A stretch of 64,000 nt of DNA from a virus. Every line of letters starts with the position of its first letter. The first letter of the stretch is position 1. The position numbers and the translations under genes are program-made. Shown here piece after piece: positions 27,598 through 63,999 of this stretch. A model generated the notes under the pieces. It saw only the letters and a program-made list of their open reading frames with translations. It searched no databases and was not told where the DNA came from. The stretch is from IMG/VR virus record IMGVR_UViG_3300042879_003054; one strand, written 5' to 3'.

Positions 27598-27712
27598 AGA
27601 AATAAGTATGAGTATAGGGATTACTCGTTTACTGATTTCCTTCACTACCCTCAAGTGAAGGTAAGATGAGAGACGTTTTTATACACCCCATAGGTCCCGG
27701 TTAATGGGTGTT
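27598..27712 (-). ncRNA. PhotoRC-II-like structured psbA 5' leader
   Basis: Hairpins CACCC..GGGACC..GGGTG, CCTTCACT-TGAGGG-AGTGAAGG and GAGTA-ATCCC-TACTC with complementary loops (GAGGG/TCCCT; GGGAC/GTCTC); resembles the known cyanophage psbA motif (from memory). Confidence 0.75.
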
Positions 27713-27740
27713 TAACAATGTTAAGAATTATGAGGAATTC

Positions 27741-59292: not shown

Positions 59293-60678
59293 TTATTTGA
59301 TAAATTGCTTCCAATACTCATAGGAAGTCATTTCTTCGTTCTTAGTTGCTTGATAAGAACGAACTCTTGATTCACCATTTTTATCTGGTGCAACCATATG
59401 AGTTTTTATTTTCTTTGATGTTGGTGCTTCTTTCTTCTCTTTCTCAAATGCTTTATGAACTTTTGCGGCATCATCATACATATGAATACTCTTAGCACCA
59501 CTTTGCTTTGCTACTGCATTCGCAACATCAACTTTCTTCTTACCAATATCACCACCTTTCATCCCACCAGTATAGTGAATCTTTGACTTATCTACATCAA
59601 CACCGTACTTTTTCAAATGTCCTTGAAATTCACTTGGTTTATCAAACTTAGAACGAGCAGTAATAAGATGAACATTTTGTCCTCTTGCCTGTTTTCTCTT
59701 AATGTCCTTAATTACTTTCTTATTTGGACTTGAAGTTTCCTTGAACTTCTTAGCACTTTGAAACTCACTGAAATCATATGAGTGTCCTTTTTCCAACTTA
59801 TGAGTATTGAACTCTTGGTTGCTTAAACTCTTAACTCTCTTTCCAGATTCATCTTTGACGTGAACCTGAACATTTGGTTTGCCCTTCTTTCCGTGCCCAA
59901 ATAGGGTCTCATCCACATCATATGCGTGAACTGTTCTTTTTGGTCTAGTTCCTCTTGCCTTCTCTTCAATATACTCTTCAAGAATTGCCGCAGTAAACTC
60001 TTCACTGATATGCTCAAACATCACTTCTGCTGCTTCATAACTTTCTGCAAAATCAGCATCAACTAAAGTTTCAATTACATAATTATAAATGTTTTCTGTT
60101 TCTTCTCTTTGTGCTGCATAATAAGCACCAAGTGCTCTCTTAATTCTTTGCTTCTTACTATCACCTTTGAAGGTTTTGCTCTTTGAATGAACGAAATCAC
60201 TAATTGTTTTACTGACATCAGCACCTACGTCAATTTTTTCATTTACATATTCCTCTTTGTAACCTTTTGCTGCAGAACTCCAATAGTCACCCCAAGATGC
60301 TTTATTTGCTTTTGCTTCTTCTGGTGATGATGGTTTAAATGTTCCACTAGTTTTACGAATAGAACCTTGTGGTTTTCTTACTTTTTTCTTAGTTCTTGCT
60401 TTTGCTGCCAAAGATTCAATTTCTTCCTTTGATGGTGGTTTATCCTGAATTTTTTTTGTTACTGGATTCCAGTGTGCTTCATTTACTTCAACTTCTTCTT
60501 TCTTTACTGACGCAACAAAACCAGGAAGTTGTGGTCCTGCTTTCTTTGCTCTTGCTGCTCTTCTACGAGCAATTTCAGCATCTGCCTTATTTGCAAATTC
60601 TTTTTGTCCCGCAATATCTGGATGTTCTGCTGCAACACCTTCAGTATAAAAACTTTTATATGAATTTCTTAAAGACAT
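59293..60678 (-). CDS. Modular putative internal head protein with C-terminal HAD-like domain
   Basis: Internal YVIETLVDADFAES..AEVMFEHISEE motif; YDVDETLF, ITAR and MYDD (HAD motifs). Confidence 0.6.
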   Translation of the reverse strand: MSLRNSYKSFYTEGVAAEHPDIAGQKEFANKADAEIARRRAARAKKAGPQLPGFVASVKKEEVEVNEAHWNPVTKKIQDKPPSKEEIESLAAKARTKKKVRKPQGSIRKTSGTFKPSSPEEAKANKASWGDYWSSAAKGYKEEYVNEKIDVGADVSKTISDFVHSKSKTFKGDSKKQRIKRALGAYYAAQREETENIYNYVIETLVDADFAESYEAAEVMFEHISEEFTAAILEEYIEEKARGTRPKRTVHAYDVDETLFGHGKKGKPNVQVHVKDESGKRVKSLSNQEFNTHKLEKGHSYDFSEFQSAKKFKETSSPNKKVIKDIKRKQARGQNVHLITARSKFDKPSEFQGHLKKYGVDVDKSKIHYTGGMKGGDIGKKKVDVANAVAKQSGAKSIHMYDDAAKVHKAFEKEKKEAPTSKKIKTHMVAPDKNGESRVRSYQATKNEEMTSYEYWKQFIK

Positions 60679-60706: not shown

Positions 60707-60736
60707 AAAAAATAGGAGGGGCAATGCCCCTCCTAT
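60707..60736 (-). terminator. Intrinsic terminator
   Basis: ATAGGAGGGGC-ATT-GCCCCTCCTATTTTTT. Confidence 0.85.
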
Positions 60737-60740
60737 CAAT

Positions 60741-60833
60741 TTACTTTTTAATCATCACTATTTTAGCTTGGTGACGACGATTTTCTTTTTGTTTTTGTTC
60801 TTTAATAAGTTGAAGGACATTAATTTTTTTCAT
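60741..60833 (-). CDS. Basic peptide (30 aa)
   Basis: MKKINVLQLIKEQKQKENRRHQAKIVMIKK; ATGA overlap with the upstream ORF. Confidence 0.55.
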   Translation of the reverse strand: MKKINVLQLIKEQKQKENRRHQAKIVMIKK

Positions 60834-60994
60834 TTGATTGTTTCCCCCGACTTCTGCATAGAAAGTTTGTTTCCATTTTCATCAACATAAAACATAGTAC
60901 CACGATAAATTTCTACTCTTGGTTCACATTTAAATGTTTGATTGGGACGGTTTGTAGTGTCATATTCAACACCACGGTATACAACTTTTGACAT
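60830..60994 (-). CDS. DUF4278-like small protein (54 aa)
   Basis: MSKVVYRGVEYD...IYRGTMF (two YRG motifs); AAGGAG RBS; directly downstream of a glutamine riboswitch. Confidence 0.78.
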   Translation of the reverse strand: MSKVVYRGVEYDTTNRPNQTFKCEPRVEIYRGTMFYVDENGNKLSMQKSGETIK

Positions 60995-61025
60995 TAGGTT
61001 TCTCCTTAGTTTTTAGGTTAAAGAG

Positions 61026-61194
61026 CGTTCCTTCAGTCGGCTTTTGCGTCTATTTTACACGTCTTTGGTGAGATTTGTTTAATCTCCCAAATTAAATCAT
61101 TCTTTGCTTGTTTAGGAATGTCTTGTTTATGAACTCTTCCTACAATCAATTGTGCTTGTAAGCAAGATAGAATGAGTGCTTCCATAGATGAACG
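61026..61194 (-). ncRNA. Glutamine riboswitch aptamer 2 (glnA/Downstream-peptide class) with ~130-nt P2 insertion
   Basis: CGTTCA-TCTAT...ATAGA-CGCAAAAGCCGACTGAAGGAACG. Confidence 0.78.
61033..61185 (-). CDS. 50-aa ORF nested inside a riboswitch aptamer
   Basis: MEALILSCLQAQLIVGRVHKQDIPKQAKNDLIWEIKQISPKTCKIDAKAD*; open frame spanning the whole insertion. Confidence 0.65.
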   Translation of the reverse strand: MEALILSCLQAQLIVGRVHKQDIPKQAKNDLIWEIKQISPKTCKIDAKAD

Positions 61195-61197
61195 TTC

Positions 61198-61254
61198 CGT
61201 TCCGAGTCGGCTTACTTCCGTCTACATTCGCAATTCGCAAATAGCAGATGAACG
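61198..61254 (-). ncRNA. Glutamine riboswitch aptamer 1 (glnA-type)
   Basis: CGTTCA-TCTGC..hairpin..GTAGA-CGGAAGTAAGCCGACTCGGAACG. Confidence 0.8.
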
Positions 61255-61264
61255 TTAGGGACTT

Positions 61265-61294
61265 ATTATATTCCCTTGTACGTTATATAGTCAA
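61265..61294 (-). promoter_or_regulatory. sigma70-type promoter of the riboswitch operon
   Basis: TTGACT-18-TATAAT ending 10 nt before aptamer 1. Confidence 0.7.
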
Positions 61295-61320: not shown

Positions 61321-62499
61321 TTAGAGTTTAAATCCACTAAAAGAATCTTTTGTAATATCCTGCTTAATGCCACCAACCACATAAGATTCTACTTCCGTTT
61401 CCTGTGGAGCAACTTGAAGTCCCTTAGAGGAAATCCAATGTTCAGTCCAAGGAAGTGGATTATTCTTTGCAGAAATATCATAGAGTGGTTTGAGTCCAAT
61501 TGCCTTCATTCTACGGTTTGCAATCCATTCAACATAACTCCAAAGAAGTTTGTCGTTTAGACCAATCATAGAACCATCTTTGAACAGATACTCTGCCCAC
61601 CTCTTTTCCTCATTTACACAATTCTCAAAGGCACCTCTTACCCATTCCTCTTCTTCTTTAGCAATTTGTTGCATTTCTGAATCATCCCCTTCACGCCACT
61701 TATTGAGGATGTTTTGAGTAATAACAAGGTGCTGATTTTCGTCTCTTGCGATGAGAGAGATAATTTTAGCGGATCCTTCCATAAGTTTGAGTTCACCAAA
61801 CGCAAAACTGCAAGCGAACGAGACATAAAACCTGATACCTTCGAGAATGTTGACATTGGCAATTGCCCTATAAAGTTTTCTCTTTAATTCAATTCTACTT
61901 TCTTTTGCATATCCAGCACCCTCTTGTGCAAAAATCCAATCATTAGATGTTCCATATTGTTGTGCAGAATTAATAAAATCATCATAAGCTCCTGTGACTG
62001 AGGATGCTCTTTCTAAAATTTTATCATTATTCAAGATGGAATCAAATACTTCAGAGGGGTCTGGATAAACATTCTTAATGATGTAAGTATAAGAACGACT
62101 ATGAATCATTTCCATAAATTCCCACACAGTCATACAAGCTTCCAATTCAGGAAGAGAGCAATAAGGAATAAATGCCATTCCAGGACCACGACCCTGAACT
62201 GAATCTAAAAGAATTTGATATTTTAAATTAGAAGTAAAGATGTGCTTTTGTTCTGGACGAAGAGTTTGATAATCAGCACGATCCTTCTGTAAAGAAACTT
62301 CTTCTGGTCTCCAGAAATATCCCAACTGTTGTTGAGTTAATTTATCAAAGACTGGATACTTATATGAATCGTACCTTTGAACTCCAAGTGGAGATCCAAA
62401 AAACATTGGTTGTTTTTTGGAGTCTACGTAAGAAGTATTAAATACTGTCATTCCCTGTATTTCTTTTTTTGAATTAACTCTAAATTTTACAACTGTCAC
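61321..62499 (-). CDS. nrdB: Ribonucleotide reductase class Ia beta subunit
   Basis: FWRPEEV, EMIHSRSY, LEGIRFYVSF, IARDENQH, VAPQETE..SY. Confidence 0.97.
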   Translation of the reverse strand: MTVVKFRVNSKKEIQGMTVFNTSYVDSKKQPMFFGSPLGVQRYDSYKYPVFDKLTQQQLGYFWRPEEVSLQKDRADYQTLRPEQKHIFTSNLKYQILLDSVQGRGPGMAFIPYCSLPELEACMTVWEFMEMIHSRSYTYIIKNVYPDPSEVFDSILNNDKILERASSVTGAYDDFINSAQQYGTSNDWIFAQEGAGYAKESRIELKRKLYRAIANVNILEGIRFYVSFACSFAFGELKLMEGSAKIISLIARDENQHLVITQNILNKWREGDDSEMQQIAKEEEEWVRGAFENCVNEEKRWAEYLFKDGSMIGLNDKLLWSYVEWIANRRMKAIGLKPLYDISAKNNPLPWTEHWISSKGLQVAPQETEVESYVVGGIKQDITKDSFSGFKL

Positions 62500-63577
62500 A
62501 ATCTTCTTCTCCTTTTAAACTTAAAATTTCCTCAATTAAATCATTAACACCTTTAGATGATTCTTTAATTTCATCAGTCTTATTATCATATGTATTTTGA
62601 TAATAAGATGTTTTCCAACCATACTTATATGTATTAAGAAGGTCTTGTGCCATCACTGACACAGGAACTTCATTATTTTCATAATTCTCTGGATTATAGG
62701 ACCAGTTTCCAGAAATTGCTTGATCAAAGAATTTCTGCATAACTGCAACAATATTAATATACCCAATATTGTTAGGCATATCCCACAAAAGCGTATAGTT
62801 ATTTTTAAGAGTTCCATACTGGGGAACAATTTGTTTAAGTGGTCCCTTTTTACTTTTTTTAACTGACAAGAATCCCCTGGGTGGTTCAATTCCATTTGTT
62901 GCATTTGACACAACGGAACTGCTCTCCGATGGCATTTGTGCGGACAATGTTGAATGTCGTAAACCATATGCCTGAATGTTGGCACGTAAAGTTTCCCAAT
63001 CATGTTGATATGGAATGGAGGAAAGTTCGTCTACATCTTTCTTGTAGGTGTCAATTGGAAGAATTCCCTGTGAATATTTAGTTTTGTTAAAATATTTACA
63101 TGCCCCTTTCTCTTTAGCAATTTGGTTAGATGACTTCAAAAGAAAATATTGGAATGATTCAGAAAGACCATGAACAGCATCCCATGCCTCCTGTGAGTCA
63201 TACTTATACCCAAGTTTAGCAAGATAGTGTGCAAGACCAATAAAACCTATTCCAAGAGACCTACGTGCCTTGGTTGAGATCTCTGCTGCTTCAACTGGAT
63301 AGTTTTGATAATCAATCAGTTCCTCCAGTCCTCTAACTGAAAGATCACAAAGTTCTTCAAACTCTTCATCAGATTTTACTTTACCTACATTAATTGCAGA
63401 AAGAATACACAAAGCAATTTCACCTTCAGGATCATCAATGTGTTGCAGAGGAGCAGTAGGAAGTGTAATTTCCTGACAATTATGGACCAGAATATCATTT
63501 GCGAAGAAGTTATGTGTTCCTTCTACAGTAATATCATAGACTGGGATTTCTTCTTCAAGATATTCAATCTTTAGCAT
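62480..63577 (-). CDS. nrdA: NrdA C-terminal half fused to split-intein C fragment
   Basis: 33-aa IntC (VYDITVEGTHNFFANDILVHN), then CQEI, LCILSA, AQMPSESSS, NGIEPPRG, KTSYY, C-terminal CDSCKI; AGGAG RBS. Confidence 0.93.
   Translation of the reverse strand: MLKIEYLEEEIPVYDITVEGTHNFFANDILVHNCQEITLPTAPLQHIDDPEGEIALCILSAINVGKVKSDEEFEELCDLSVRGLEELIDYQNYPVEAAEISTKARRSLGIGFIGLAHYLAKLGYKYDSQEAWDAVHGLSESFQYFLLKSSNQIAKEKGACKYFNKTKYSQGILPIDTYKKDVDELSSIPYQHDWETLRANIQAYGLRHSTLSAQMPSESSSVVSNATNGIEPPRGFLSVKKSKKGPLKQIVPQYGTLKNNYTLLWDMPNNIGYINIVAVMQKFFDQAISGNWSYNPENYENNEVPVSVMAQDLLNTYKYGWKTSYYQNTYDNKTDEIKESSKGVNDLIEEILSLKGEEDCDSCKI
63479..63577 (-). mobile_element. Split intein C-terminal fragment (IntC)
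   Basis: Block F VYDITV..HNFFAN and block G HN/C junction. Confidence 0.92.
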
Positions 63578-63999
63578 TTTTTTCTCCTGTTTTGTTCTAA
63601 AAGTTGTTTAGCAAGTGTTCTTTGAGTTTCGTCTCTATAATAAGGATTATACACCAATCCAGTTTGTTCTTCAATAGATTTATAAAAGTTTTTATGTTTC
63701 CCACCAAATCTATTTTTAGAAAAATGTTTTGGAAACTTAATATTCAATTCATTAATAGCAAACTCAACTATTCTTTGTCTTCCACCAATAAATCCATATT
63801 TTTTAGCAAACTTTACACCTACTTCTATAAGTTCCTCATCAGTGTATCCAGAATAGTTTGGATTATTATAACCAGTAGTTCTTATGGAAATACCATTTCT
63901 CCACTCTTCCTGAACCTCCTGTGAGCATCTTGGAAGCATCCATCCACCAGTTCCTCCTGAAGTGGCATTATAACCTTTAGTATCACTTTCAAAGAGTTT
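63571..63999 (-). mobile_element. GIY-YIG-like homing endonuclease between the nrdA halves (5' part outside window)
   Basis: Frame open to the window edge: KLFESDTKGYNATSGGTGG (GYNxTxGG motif) ... GYNNPNY. Confidence 0.7.

What the first reader, a model, noticed from the sequence alone, without database searches (positions are those of the whole stretch)
61026..61254. A complete protein-coding ORF nested inside a glutamine riboswitch aptamer (tandem switch)
Seen: two back-to-back aptamers on the minus strand share CGTTCA-TCT...AGA-CG(G/C)AA..GCCGAC..GGAACG. Aptamer 1 has a short P2 hairpin. In aptamer 2, P2 (TCTAT/ATAGA) closes a ~130-nt loop. A 50-codon ORF starts in the 5' strand of P2 (TCT-ATG), runs through the loop and the conserved core (GAC GCA AAA GCC GAC = DAKAD), and stops at the TGA inside the aptamer 3' core. 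Established: glnA/Downstream-peptide motifs are cyanobacterial glutamine riboswitches, often tandem and often upstream of DUF4278 genes. Inference: folding of aptamer 2 and translation of the nested ORF are mutually exclusive, giving a ribosome-coupled glutamine logic gate. Ligand binding would bury the start codon, and translation would unfold the aptamer that controls the downstream gene. I do not know of a described riboswitch containing a whole gene.
Basis: partly seen in the sequence, partly recalled or inferred. Interest (0 to 1): 0.9.

Follow-up and report, generated by a model that had tools for sequence, protein, structure and literature searches.

The report
Gene nested inside cyanophage glutamine riboswitch
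In this T4-like cyanophage, one hairpin of a two-core glutamine-sensing RNA switch closes around a real 50-codon gene, so nitrogen sensing and translation of that gene should compete on one RNA; over a hundred related phage contigs share the layout and I found no paper describing it.

Summary
On the minus strand, 61254-61026 holds two glutamine-riboswitch cores. The second closes a 5-bp P2 helix (61188-61184 with 61053-61049) around a 50-codon ORF (61185-61033). Its AUG lies in the P2 5' strand and its UGA in the conserved 3' core.

- **Recurrence:** a capped scan gave 119 viral contigs with the same 3' core. All 89 with a long P2 carry such an ORF. Compact-P2 versions reach Rfam RF01739's cut-off.
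- **Selection on both levels:** P2 covaries across 130-190 nt. The ORF is under purifying selection (dN/dS about 0.13, two invariant Cys) and is unusually structured as RNA.
the cores are not independent. The long-range "linchpin" pair forms only across cores, in 131 of 131 tandems. The E-loop halves are split between cores, and a P3 helix forms between them.
- **Output:** the downstream DUF4278 (IF17-like) gene has a Shine-Dalgarno (SD)-masking hairpin that shares nucleotides with the outer core. This predicts a glutamine ON switch.

Ligand binding and ribosome-aptamer competition are inferred, not tested. The scan reported this layout before on other DNA. No searchable paper describes it.

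The parts
61265..61294 (-). Sigma-70-like promoter, TTGACT-18-TATAAT. The predicted transcription start is about 61258, a few nt before core a.
   Evidence: 11 of 12 consensus matches. A similar TTGAC(T)/TATA promoter sits upstream in related loci.
61250..61254 (-). P1 5' strand of core a (CGUUC). Proposed partner is GAACG at 61030-61026, forming the outer P1.
   Evidence: The partner is assigned from the linchpin covariation. P1 itself never varies, so its pairing is inferred.
61221..61248 (-). P2(a), a compact hairpin (UCUGC...GUAGA). It carries no ORF in this window.
   Evidence: Rfam alignment and the MFE fold. In 40 of 112 related tandems this hairpin also encloses an ORF.
61213..61220 (-). 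CGG strand of core a followed by AAGUA. G61219 is the equivalent of G22. G61218 is linchpin X1. AGUA is the 5' half of the E-loop.
   Evidence: Residue roles come from PMC6698751. X1 is complementary to Y2 in 131/131 tandems.
61206..61211 (-). P3a (GCCGAC). It pairs antiparallel with P3b at 61041-61036.
   Evidence: Variant pairs GUUGAC:GGCAAC (12 loci), GACAAC:GUUGAC and GCCAAC:GUUGAC keep the helix. Position 4:3 is paired in 8 of 8 distinct combinations (G:C, A:U, G.U).
61190..61202 (-). Inner P1 hairpin: GAACG(a), loop G-AA, CGUUC(b). G61197 is linchpin Y1, which pairs with C61046.
   Evidence: It forms in the MFE fold. X2:Y1 is C:G in 124 of 131 tandems. No variants of A57 or C58 in this strand exist in viral contigs.
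61049..61188 (-). P2(b) domain. The closing helix is UCUAU (61188-61184) with AUAGA (61053-61049). An extension pairs GCAC (61179-61176) with GUGU (61060-61057). The interior is structured.
   Evidence: Covariation. Compensatory pairs in the extension and in an internal hairpin. Predicted closure probability is 0.90 against 0.43 with a shuffled interior, and the MFE z-score is about -4.3.
61033..61185 (-). Nested gene of 50 aa: a small two-helix protein with two invariant Cys residues. It weakly matches phrog_504. The stop codon UGA is at 61035-61033.
   Evidence: dN/dS is about 0.13. Entropy by codon position is 0.46, 0.21 and 0.91. C8 and C43 are invariant in 58 sequences. The AF2 model has pLDDT 85. 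The profile finds 357 clusters at 50% identity.
61046..61048 (-). CGC strand of core b. G61047 is the equivalent of G22. C61046 is linchpin X2.
61036..61041 (-). P3b (GCCGAC), the partner of P3a.
61025..61034 (-). GAAG (the 3' half of the E-loop, overlapping the UGA), then GAACG (the outer P1 3' strand), then C61025 (linchpin Y2).
60996..61032 (-). Predicted OFF hairpin. AGG (61032-61030) pairs with CCU (60998-60996). The anti-SD CUCUUUA (61025-61019) pairs with the SD UAAGGAG (61008-61002). The hairpin shares AGG and C61025 with the outer core.
   Evidence: -13.2 kcal/mol for the 76-nt fold that contains it, z -2.4; the hairpin segment alone folds at -7.1 kcal/mol. The same hairpin is predicted in most related loci with Y2 = C.
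60830..60994 (-). Regulated gene: a 54-aa DUF4278 / IF17-like protein with two YRG motifs.
   Evidence: Pfam DUF4278 scores 22.4 bits, below the gathering score of 25.3. phrog_5049 matches at E 2.8e-7. A Y[RK]G gene follows the core in 116 of 118 loci.
60741..60833 (-). A 30-aa ORF that overlaps the previous stop codon (ATGA). It carries a conserved LQLIKEQ module.
   Evidence: The same motif is fused to, or replaces, the YRG gene in L017, L108 and L119.
60711..60737 (-). Intrinsic terminator that ends the mini-operon.
   Evidence: a 12-bp stem with 7 G-C pairs and a T run.

Best explanation
This is the leader of a small cyanophage operon that runs from the promoter at 61294 to the terminator at 60711.

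**Architecture.** The leader is one composite glutamine riboswitch built from two interlocked glutamine-I-type cores.
- The outer core joins the 5' strand, P2(a) and the CGG-AAGUA strand of core a to the GAAG-GAACG-C strand of core b.
- The inner core is the hairpin GAACG(a)-GAA-CGUUC(b) together with P2(b) and the CGC strand of core b.
- A P3 helix, GCCGAC with GCCGAC, joins the two cores.
- P2(b) is not a small hairpin. It is a 140-nt structured domain that also encodes a 50-aa two-Cys helical protein.

**Proposed mechanism.**
1. Glutamine stabilises the composite fold.
2. That fold withdraws AGG and C61025 from the hairpin that masks the Shine-Dalgarno sequence. Translation of the DUF4278 (IF17-like, presumed glutamine-synthetase inhibitor) gene turns ON.
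3. The same fold buries the nested gene's AUG in P2(b), beside the inner P1, so the nested gene turns OFF.
4. A ribosome on the nested ORF must melt P2(b) and the inner P1. When it terminates at the UGA inside the outer core, it must also melt the outer P1, the E-loop and the anti-SD. Sensing and translation therefore exclude each other on one RNA.
5. The AUG is transcribed about 130 nt before its P2 partner, so the nested gene may be translated mainly co-transcriptionally, or when glutamine is low.

**Shown here:** the anatomy, its recurrence, covariation of P2, of the linchpins and of P3, coding selection on the ORF, and RNA structure within the ORF.

**Inferred:** glutamine binding, the ON direction, start-codon occlusion and the ribosome-aptamer competition.
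For: - **Family and layout.** Sequence and ORF are. Core a hits RF01739 at 31.3 bits. Compact cores with the identical 3' sequence reach 35.4-39.4 bits, above the gathering score of 35.
- **Recurrence.** 89/89 long-P2 loci have an ORF whose ATG lies in the P2 5' strand, and 83 of them stop at the core UGA. 40/40 long P2(a) hairpins also hold an ORF. The layout classes are cL 53, LL 31, cc 19 and Lc 9, where c is compact and L is ORF-bearing, in the order a then b.
- **P2 covariation.** 93% of native strand pairs have 5 or more contiguous base pairs, against 27% for cross-pairings. Positions 1-5 are 96-100% paired.
- **Cross-core linchpins.** X1:Y2 is complementary in 131/131 tandems (81 C:G, 50 G:C). 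The cis pair X1:Y1 would be a mismatch in every tandem with X1 = G (49 of the 116 tandems parsed). On the ORF tree the two sites change together five times.
- **E-loop and P3.** The E-loop halves are split between the cores. P3a:P3b keeps pairing through compensatory variants.
- **Ligand contacts.** The nucleotides named in PMC6698751 (C1, G2, G22, C58, G59) are present in both cores.
- **Coding and structure.** dN/dS is about 0.13 with three-nucleotide periodicity. Two Cys are invariant. The AF2 model has pLDDT 85. The ORF RNA is more structured than shuffles, and 83/84 MFE folds close P2. Helices inside the ORF show compensatory changes.
- **Output.** An SD-masking hairpin overlaps the outer core. 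Glutamine riboswitches are ON switches for gifB/IF17 genes (PMC6212724).
Against: - No binding, probing or expression data exist for this RNA.
- Core a is below Rfam's cut-off, and core b is invisible to cmscan.
- P1 never varies, so outer versus cis P1 pairing cannot be tested by covariation.
- The linchpin co-change rests on only 3 well-supported (5 in all) independent contrasts, sign test p 0.25. It could reflect two ancestral backbones that exchange ORF cassettes by recombination.
- The canonical P3 helix has two A.C mismatches, and two single-locus exceptions exist.
- The inner linchpin is A or U instead of G in 7 of 131 tandems.
- The nested ORF has no clear Shine-Dalgarno sequence.
- A terminating ribosome would also open the anti-SD. 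Translation of the nested gene might therefore switch the downstream gene on whatever the glutamine level, which blurs the simple OFF/ON logic.
- Loci with Y2 = G have a different 3' platform with no obvious SD masking.
Confidence: 0.6

Rival explanations
1. Two independent aptamers sit in tandem and each folds in cis. The second merely tolerates a gene in its P2 loop, and together they give a pseudo-cooperative (more switch-like) response.
For: The linear order reads as two complete units. Compact b units alone pass RF01739. A review counts 157 glutamine doublets as pseudo-cooperative (PMC9481103). In tandems with X1 = C, cis and cross linchpins cannot be told apart.
Against: In this window the cis linchpins would be G.G and C.C, at a pair conserved in both crystal structures. 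Core a lacks the GAA half of the E-loop and core b lacks the AGUA half. P3 variants compensate between the cores, not within them.
Confidence: 0.15
2. The conserved half-cores mainly act as recombination sites that shuffle small-gene cassettes between cyanophages, as promoter-stem-loop cassettes do in T4-type phages. Glutamine sensing by the ORF-bearing units would then be lost or secondary.
For: The same ORF families occur in P2(a) or in P2(b), and with either linchpin state. Nearly identical ORFs sit on different backbones, for example L019 and L122. A free-standing homologue exists with no riboswitch around it (L261).
Against: Recombination sites would not need P2 covariation, invariant ligand-contact nucleotides, complementary linchpins, or an ORF interior selected to fold so that P2 closes.
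Confidence: 0.12
3. The ORF is not translated. The insert is only an enlarged structured P2 domain that happens to keep a reading frame open.
For: The insert is strongly structured, with compensatory pairs. It has no clear Shine-Dalgarno sequence.
Against: dN/dS is about 0.13 and the third codon position is the most variable. The frame survives length changes from 49 to 66 codons. Two Cys are invariant at 33% mean column identity. The helical model is confident. A free-standing homologous gene exists.
Confidence: 0.04

Closest known systems
Glutamine-I riboswitch (glnA RNA motif, Rfam RF01739), for example the Synechocystis gifB/IF17 leader (PMC6212724)
   Same: It has the CGUUC/GAACG P1, the adjacent P2, the CG(G/C) strand and the AGUA/GAA E-loop elements. 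The ligand-contact nucleotides are present. A DUF4278 gene lies downstream, and a translational ON logic through SD masking is predicted.
   Different: - Two cores are interlocked rather than one three-way junction.
- The linchpin pair, the E-loop and P3 form between the cores.
- P2 encloses a translated gene.
- This locus fails Rfam's cut-off as linear units.
Glutamine-II riboswitch (Downstream-peptide motif, RF01704; structure in PMC6698751)
   Same: The inner core uses a C:G long-range pair like C19:G41, and it has CGCA after P2. The compact homologue of core b scores 24.9 bits on RF01704. The published two-piece version shows that the binding site can assemble from separate strands.
   Different: There is no Glutamine-II P2 or pseudoknot arrangement. 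The score is below the gathering score of 33.
Tandem (cooperative or pseudo-cooperative) riboswitches, for example the glycine riboswitch and the glutamine doublets in PMC9481103
   Same: Two sensing cores for the same ligand precede one gene.
   Different: That survey required that no ORF intervene and treated the doublets as separate riboswitches. Here the cores exchange strands and one of them encloses a gene.
ORFs inside structured RNAs or leaders: homing-endonuclease ORFs in group I intron loops, and translated uORFs in riboswitch expression platforms (for example the M. tuberculosis B12 switches, bioRxiv 10.1101/2022.06.01.494293)
   Same: A coding sequence is housed in a peripheral loop of a functional RNA fold, or translation of a short ORF is coupled to riboswitch output.
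   Different: The ORF lies inside the ligand-binding aptamer itself. Its start codon is in an aptamer helix and its stop codon is in the conserved core. It is not in the expression platform and not in a ribozyme.

Membership tests
Glutamine-I riboswitch (RF01739) | The covariance-model score reaches the gathering score of 35 bits. | tested here: not met
   Core a scores 31.3 bits and core b gets no hit. Natural compact-P2 relatives with the identical core-b 3' sequence score 35.4-39.4 bits. Rfam could not be run on an edited, insert-deleted sequence with these tools.
Glutamine-I riboswitch (RF01739) | A P1 helix CGUUC/GAACG with the ligand-contact nucleotides C1, G2, G22, C58 and G59. | tested here: met
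   All are present in both cores. Their roles come from PMC6698751. No variants of A57 or C58 exist in viral contigs.
Glutamine-I riboswitch (RF01739) | A P2 hairpin directly after CGUUCA, supported by covariation. | tested here: met
   The 5-bp P2(b) spans a 130-nt interior. Positions 1-5 are paired in 96-100% of 52 distinct strand pairs, with several pair types.
Glutamine-I riboswitch (RF01739) | A long-range Watson-Crick linchpin pair (G23:C60) within one aptamer. | tested here: not met
   In cis the pairs would be G61218.G61197 and C61046.C61025. Across the cores they are G:C and C:G, and they are complementary in 131/131 tandems.
Glutamine-I riboswitch (RF01739) | An E-loop (AGUA opposite GAA) flanking P3 within one aptamer. 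| tested here: not met
   AGUA occurs only in core a (61216-61213) and GAA only in core b (61034-61032). A complete E-loop is possible only between the cores.
Glutamine-I riboswitch (RF01739) | Selective binding of L-glutamine. | not testable with these tools
   This needs in-line probing or ITC.
Glutamine-I riboswitch (RF01739) | A position upstream of a DUF4278 (gifB/IF17-like) gene, with translational ON control. | tested here: inconclusive
   The downstream 54-aa protein hits DUF4278 at 22.4 bits, below the gathering score of 25.3, and has two YRG motifs. An SD-masking hairpin that overlaps the core is predicted. The ON behaviour itself was not tested.
phrog_504 (small phage protein, function unknown) | A significant profile match. 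| tested here: inconclusive
   The window ORF matches at E 0.0039 and 17.9 bits. The P-SSM4 homologue matches at E 5.6e-16. My own family profile finds 357 clusters.

The most novel reading that the evidence does not exclude
This would be a riboswitch whose ligand-sensing fold is physically gated by translation of a gene embedded in it. Two interlocked glutamine sites would form only after the pioneer ribosome has cleared the nested ORF. The nested two-Cys protein would then be made in a co-transcriptional or low-glutamine burst, and the IF17-like protein only afterwards at high glutamine. A single 230-nt RNA would act as a timer as well as a sensor that reciprocally controls two genes during infection.
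Probability: 0.35. Interest if true: 0.92.

Novelty: new variant of a known kind. Interest (0 to 1): 0.82.

Why it matters
Riboswitch aptamers are treated as compact non-coding units, and tandem surveys explicitly discard arrangements that contain ORFs (PMC9481103). A 2017 census found only two glutamine aptamers in cyanophages and concluded that phages rarely use riboswitches (PMC5473149).

Here a capped scan alone gives more than 130 viral contigs with this device. Most are invisible to Rfam because a gene sits inside the aptamer.

If the mechanism holds, three things follow:
- It is a natural example of direct ribosome-aptamer competition within the sensing domain.
- It is a strand-swapped two-site sensor.
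- It gives cyanophages a way to tie manipulation of host glutamine synthetase to host nitrogen status, which matters for ocean nitrogen and carbon cycling.

It also shows one stretch of sequence under simultaneous selection for a protein and for a long-range RNA fold.

Tried and rejected
- **Rfam on an edited sequence.** The tools cannot run Rfam on an insert-deleted sequence, so I used natural compact-P2 homologues as the control.
- **Genome-contig scan.** A 14-base junction pattern returned only chance hits in unrelated bacteria.
- **The genome search.** The window's assembly is not held. The nearest record, G001, has no match, and no cyanobacterial handle could be obtained.
- **P1 covariation.** Scans for variants in the P1 3' strand of core a (at A57 and C58) and at P3b positions 1 and 6 found none. 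P1 pairing therefore cannot be tested by covariation.
- **Protein function.** Foldseek against the PDB and the ESM Atlas gave nothing useful for the nested protein. Pfam gave no hit. Source names such as \"indole-3-glycerol phosphate synthase\" for 50-aa proteins are spurious.
- **Literature.** Ames & Breaker 2011 and Ren et al. 2015 are not held. I cannot exclude that one of them mentions strand exchange in tandem glnA RNAs.
- **Rejected readings.** A lipoprotein signal peptide is unlikely because only 7 residues precede the first Cys in this window. A chance ORF and a recent insertion scar are both ruled out by the divergence and covariation data.

Full report
**1. Context**

The window is a T4-like cyanophage of the Kyanoviridae. 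A PhotoRC-II RNA lies at 27625-27723. nrdA and nrdB lie just upstream of the finding. The nearest cultured relative is Synechococcus phage DSL-LC03, at about 80% identity.

On the minus strand a near-consensus promoter, TTGACT-18-TATAAT, sits at 61294-61265. An intrinsic terminator sits at 60737-60711. Together they bracket a mini-operon of about 550 nt. It holds the leader with the nested ORF, a 54-aa DUF4278-like gene (60994-60830) and an overlapping 30-aa ORF (60833-60741).

Yes. The sequence reads exactly as described.
- Core a runs 61254-61198 and core b runs 61194-26, that is, 61194-61026.
- A 50-codon ORF runs 61185-61033. Its AU pairs within the P2 helix UCUAU/AUAGA, and its UGA lies in GAC-UGA-AGGAACG.
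- Rfam's Glutamine model hits core a at 31.3 bits, below the gathering score of 35. It misses core b.

I could not run Rfam on an edited sequence, so I used nature's own deletion control.
- Thirty loci have a compact P2. Of the 11 compact-P2 loci I submitted to Rfam, 9 reach RF01739 at 35.4-39.4 bits.
- Eighty-nine loci have a 143-200-nt P2. All 89 carry an ORF whose ATG lies 9-11 nt after the C of CGTTCA. Eighty-three of these stop at the core UGA.

**3. Selection on the RNA helix**

Among the ORF-bearing units there are 52 distinct P2 strand pairs. Positions 1-5 are paired in 96-100% of them. Positions 3-5 each use three or four different Watson-Crick or wobble pair types. Native strand pairs reach 5 or more contiguous base pairs in 93% of cases, against 27% when strands are mismatched between loci.

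The ORF interior is itself selected to fold.
- Predicted closure of P2 is 0.90, against 0.68 with shuffled interiors. For this window the figures are 0.90 and 0.43.
- 83 of 84 MFE folds close P2.
- The mean MFE z-score is about -3.8.

RNAalifold on 23 same-length relatives finds two further helices with both-sides-changed pairs. One is an extension of P2, GCAC with GUGU. The other is an internal hairpin.

**4. Selection on the protein**

- In 17 unique 50-codon relatives, entropy by codon position is 0.46, 0.21 and 0.91. dN/dS is about 0.13.
- ORF lengths from 49 to 66 codons keep the frame through to the core UGA.
- An alignment of 58 diverse members, at 33% mean column identity, has two invariant cysteines, C8 and C43.
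- AlphaFold gives a confident two-helix hairpin with pLDDT 85.
- A profile search finds 357 clusters at 50% identity.
- The P-SSM4 homologue is a clear phrog_504 member, while the window ORF matches only weakly.
- A homologue in L261 stands free of any riboswitch, so the protein has a life of its own. Its function is unknown.

**5. The two cores are interlocked, not independent**

The crystal-structure paper PMC6698751 states that both glutamine riboswitch classes end the ligand-binding helix with a conserved long-range pair. This is G23:C60 in class I and C19:G41 in class II.

In this window the cis pairs would be G.G (core a) and C.C (core b). The cross pairs G61218:C61025 and C61046:G61197 are Watson-Crick. 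Over all parsed tandems, X1:Y2 is complementary in 131 of 131 (81 C:G and 50 G:C). In every tandem with X1 = G (49 of the 116 parsed), X1:Y1 would be a mismatch.

On a tree of the ORF interiors the two sites change together five times, three of them on well-supported branches. That is too few for a significant sign test, and the pattern could reflect cassette exchange between two backbones.

Two further observations point the same way.
- Core a keeps only the AGUA half of the E-loop and core b only the GAA half.
- The GCCGAC segments of the two cores can pair antiparallel, and variants compensate: GUUGAC:GGCAAC in 12 loci, GACAAC:GUUGAC and GCCAAC:GUUGAC.

The simplest topology has an outer and an inner unit.
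- The outer unit is a class-I-like aptamer made from the 5' elements of core a and the 3' elements of core b.
- Its P3 position holds an inner, circularly permuted core, formed by the GAACG-GAA-CGUUC hairpin, P2(b) and the CGC strand.

P1 is invariant, so this assignment is inference. Earlier notes of this scan described "interlocked cores" on other genomes. That phrase prompted me to run this test, and I verified the claim here independently.

**6. Output**

Directly after the outer core, CUCUUUA (61025-61019) pairs with the Shine-Dalgarno sequence UAAGGAG (61008-61002). AGG (61032-61030) pairs with CCU (60998-60996). The same hairpin recurs in most related loci with Y2 = C.

This hairpin shares AGG and C61025 with the outer P1, the E-loop and the linchpin. 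A glutamine-stabilised fold should therefore free the SD. That matches the ON behaviour shown for gifB leaders (PMC6212724). A Y[RK]G (DUF4278-like) gene follows the core in 116 of 118 loci.

**7. How the nested gene fits**

The A and U of the AUG pair within P2(b). Immediately upstream lies the inner P1 hairpin. The UGA lies 8 nt before the anti-SD.

Folding should therefore occlude initiation of the nested gene. A translating or terminating ribosome must in turn melt both cores and the SD mask. Some relatives have a 13-20-bp P2(b) that covers the whole AUG. This suggests that initiation happens mainly before the 3' strand is transcribed. These steps are inferred and none was tested.

**8. 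Variants of the layout**

Of 112 parsed tandems:
- 53 have the ORF only in P2(b), as in this window;
- 31 have ORFs in both hairpins, as in P-SSM4;
- 9 have the ORF only in P2(a);
- 19 have none.

**9. Novelty**

Searches of the held literature found no description of an ORF inside a riboswitch aptamer or of strand-exchanged glutamine cores.
- Weinberg 2010 notes only that some glnA RNAs are tandem.
- Sherlock 2022 counts 157 doublets as pseudo-cooperative and excludes arrangements with intervening ORFs.
- McCown 2017 found only two glutamine aptamers in cyanophages.
- Ames & Breaker 2011 and Ren 2015 could not be read.

This scan has reported the same layout on many other genomes.

**Verdict.** This is a real, widespread and apparently undescribed architectural variant of the glutamine riboswitch. 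The anatomy is solid. The mechanism is plausible but untested.

Noticed in passing
window 62480-63999 (- strand): nrdA is fractured. The C-terminal NrdA piece (62480-63577) begins with an intein C-terminal splicing block (...ILVHN|C), which matches Pfam Intein_splicing at 30.8 bits. A separate 122-142-aa ORF (63571-63999) precedes it, overlaps its start and has no Pfam hit. This resembles the 'fractured gene' layout of a split intein plus a free-standing endonuclease, which I recall from memory for cyanophage-like sequences.
   Followed up: partly
window 27625-27723 (- strand): A PhotoRC-II RNA (RF01717) scores 67.9 bits. It is a known cyanophage cis-regulatory motif.
   Followed up: no
L004 115-300; L042, L078, L080: A manA RNA (RF01745, 168-184 bits) lies within a few hundred nt of the glutamine device in P-SSM4 and in several viral contigs. 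One is followed by a tRNA.
   Followed up: no
window 61262-61280 (- strand), and related loci: An inverted repeat overlaps the -10 box and the transcription start. It reads AGGGA..TCCCT here and GTGTTA..TAACAC in relatives. It resembles the promoter-early stem-loops of T4-type phages that mediate cassette shuffling (recalled from memory).
   Followed up: no
window 60741-60833 (- strand); L017, L108, L119: The 30-aa ORF carries a conserved ..N.LQLIKEQ.. module. In other phages this module is fused behind a YRG motif, or it replaces the DUF4278 gene directly after the riboswitch.
   Followed up: partly
L093 about 2474-2560 (rc coordinates); proteins P0151, P0183, P0186: Further core variants exist, for example ACGCAAATGACTAAAGGAACG. 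Family members ending in ..WDAND or ..WDAHD imply ORFs that read through those variant cores. The device is therefore more diverse than my single search pattern shows.
   Followed up: no
window 61019-61035 (- strand): The core UGA is followed five codons later by an in-frame UAA inside the anti-SD (UGA AGG AAC GCU CUU UAA). In S-SRM01 the UGA is GGA, and the ORF ends at that UAA.
   Followed up: no
window 59293-60678 (- strand): A 461-aa lysine- and glutamate-rich ORF lies just downstream of the terminator. It has no Pfam hit.
   Followed up: no
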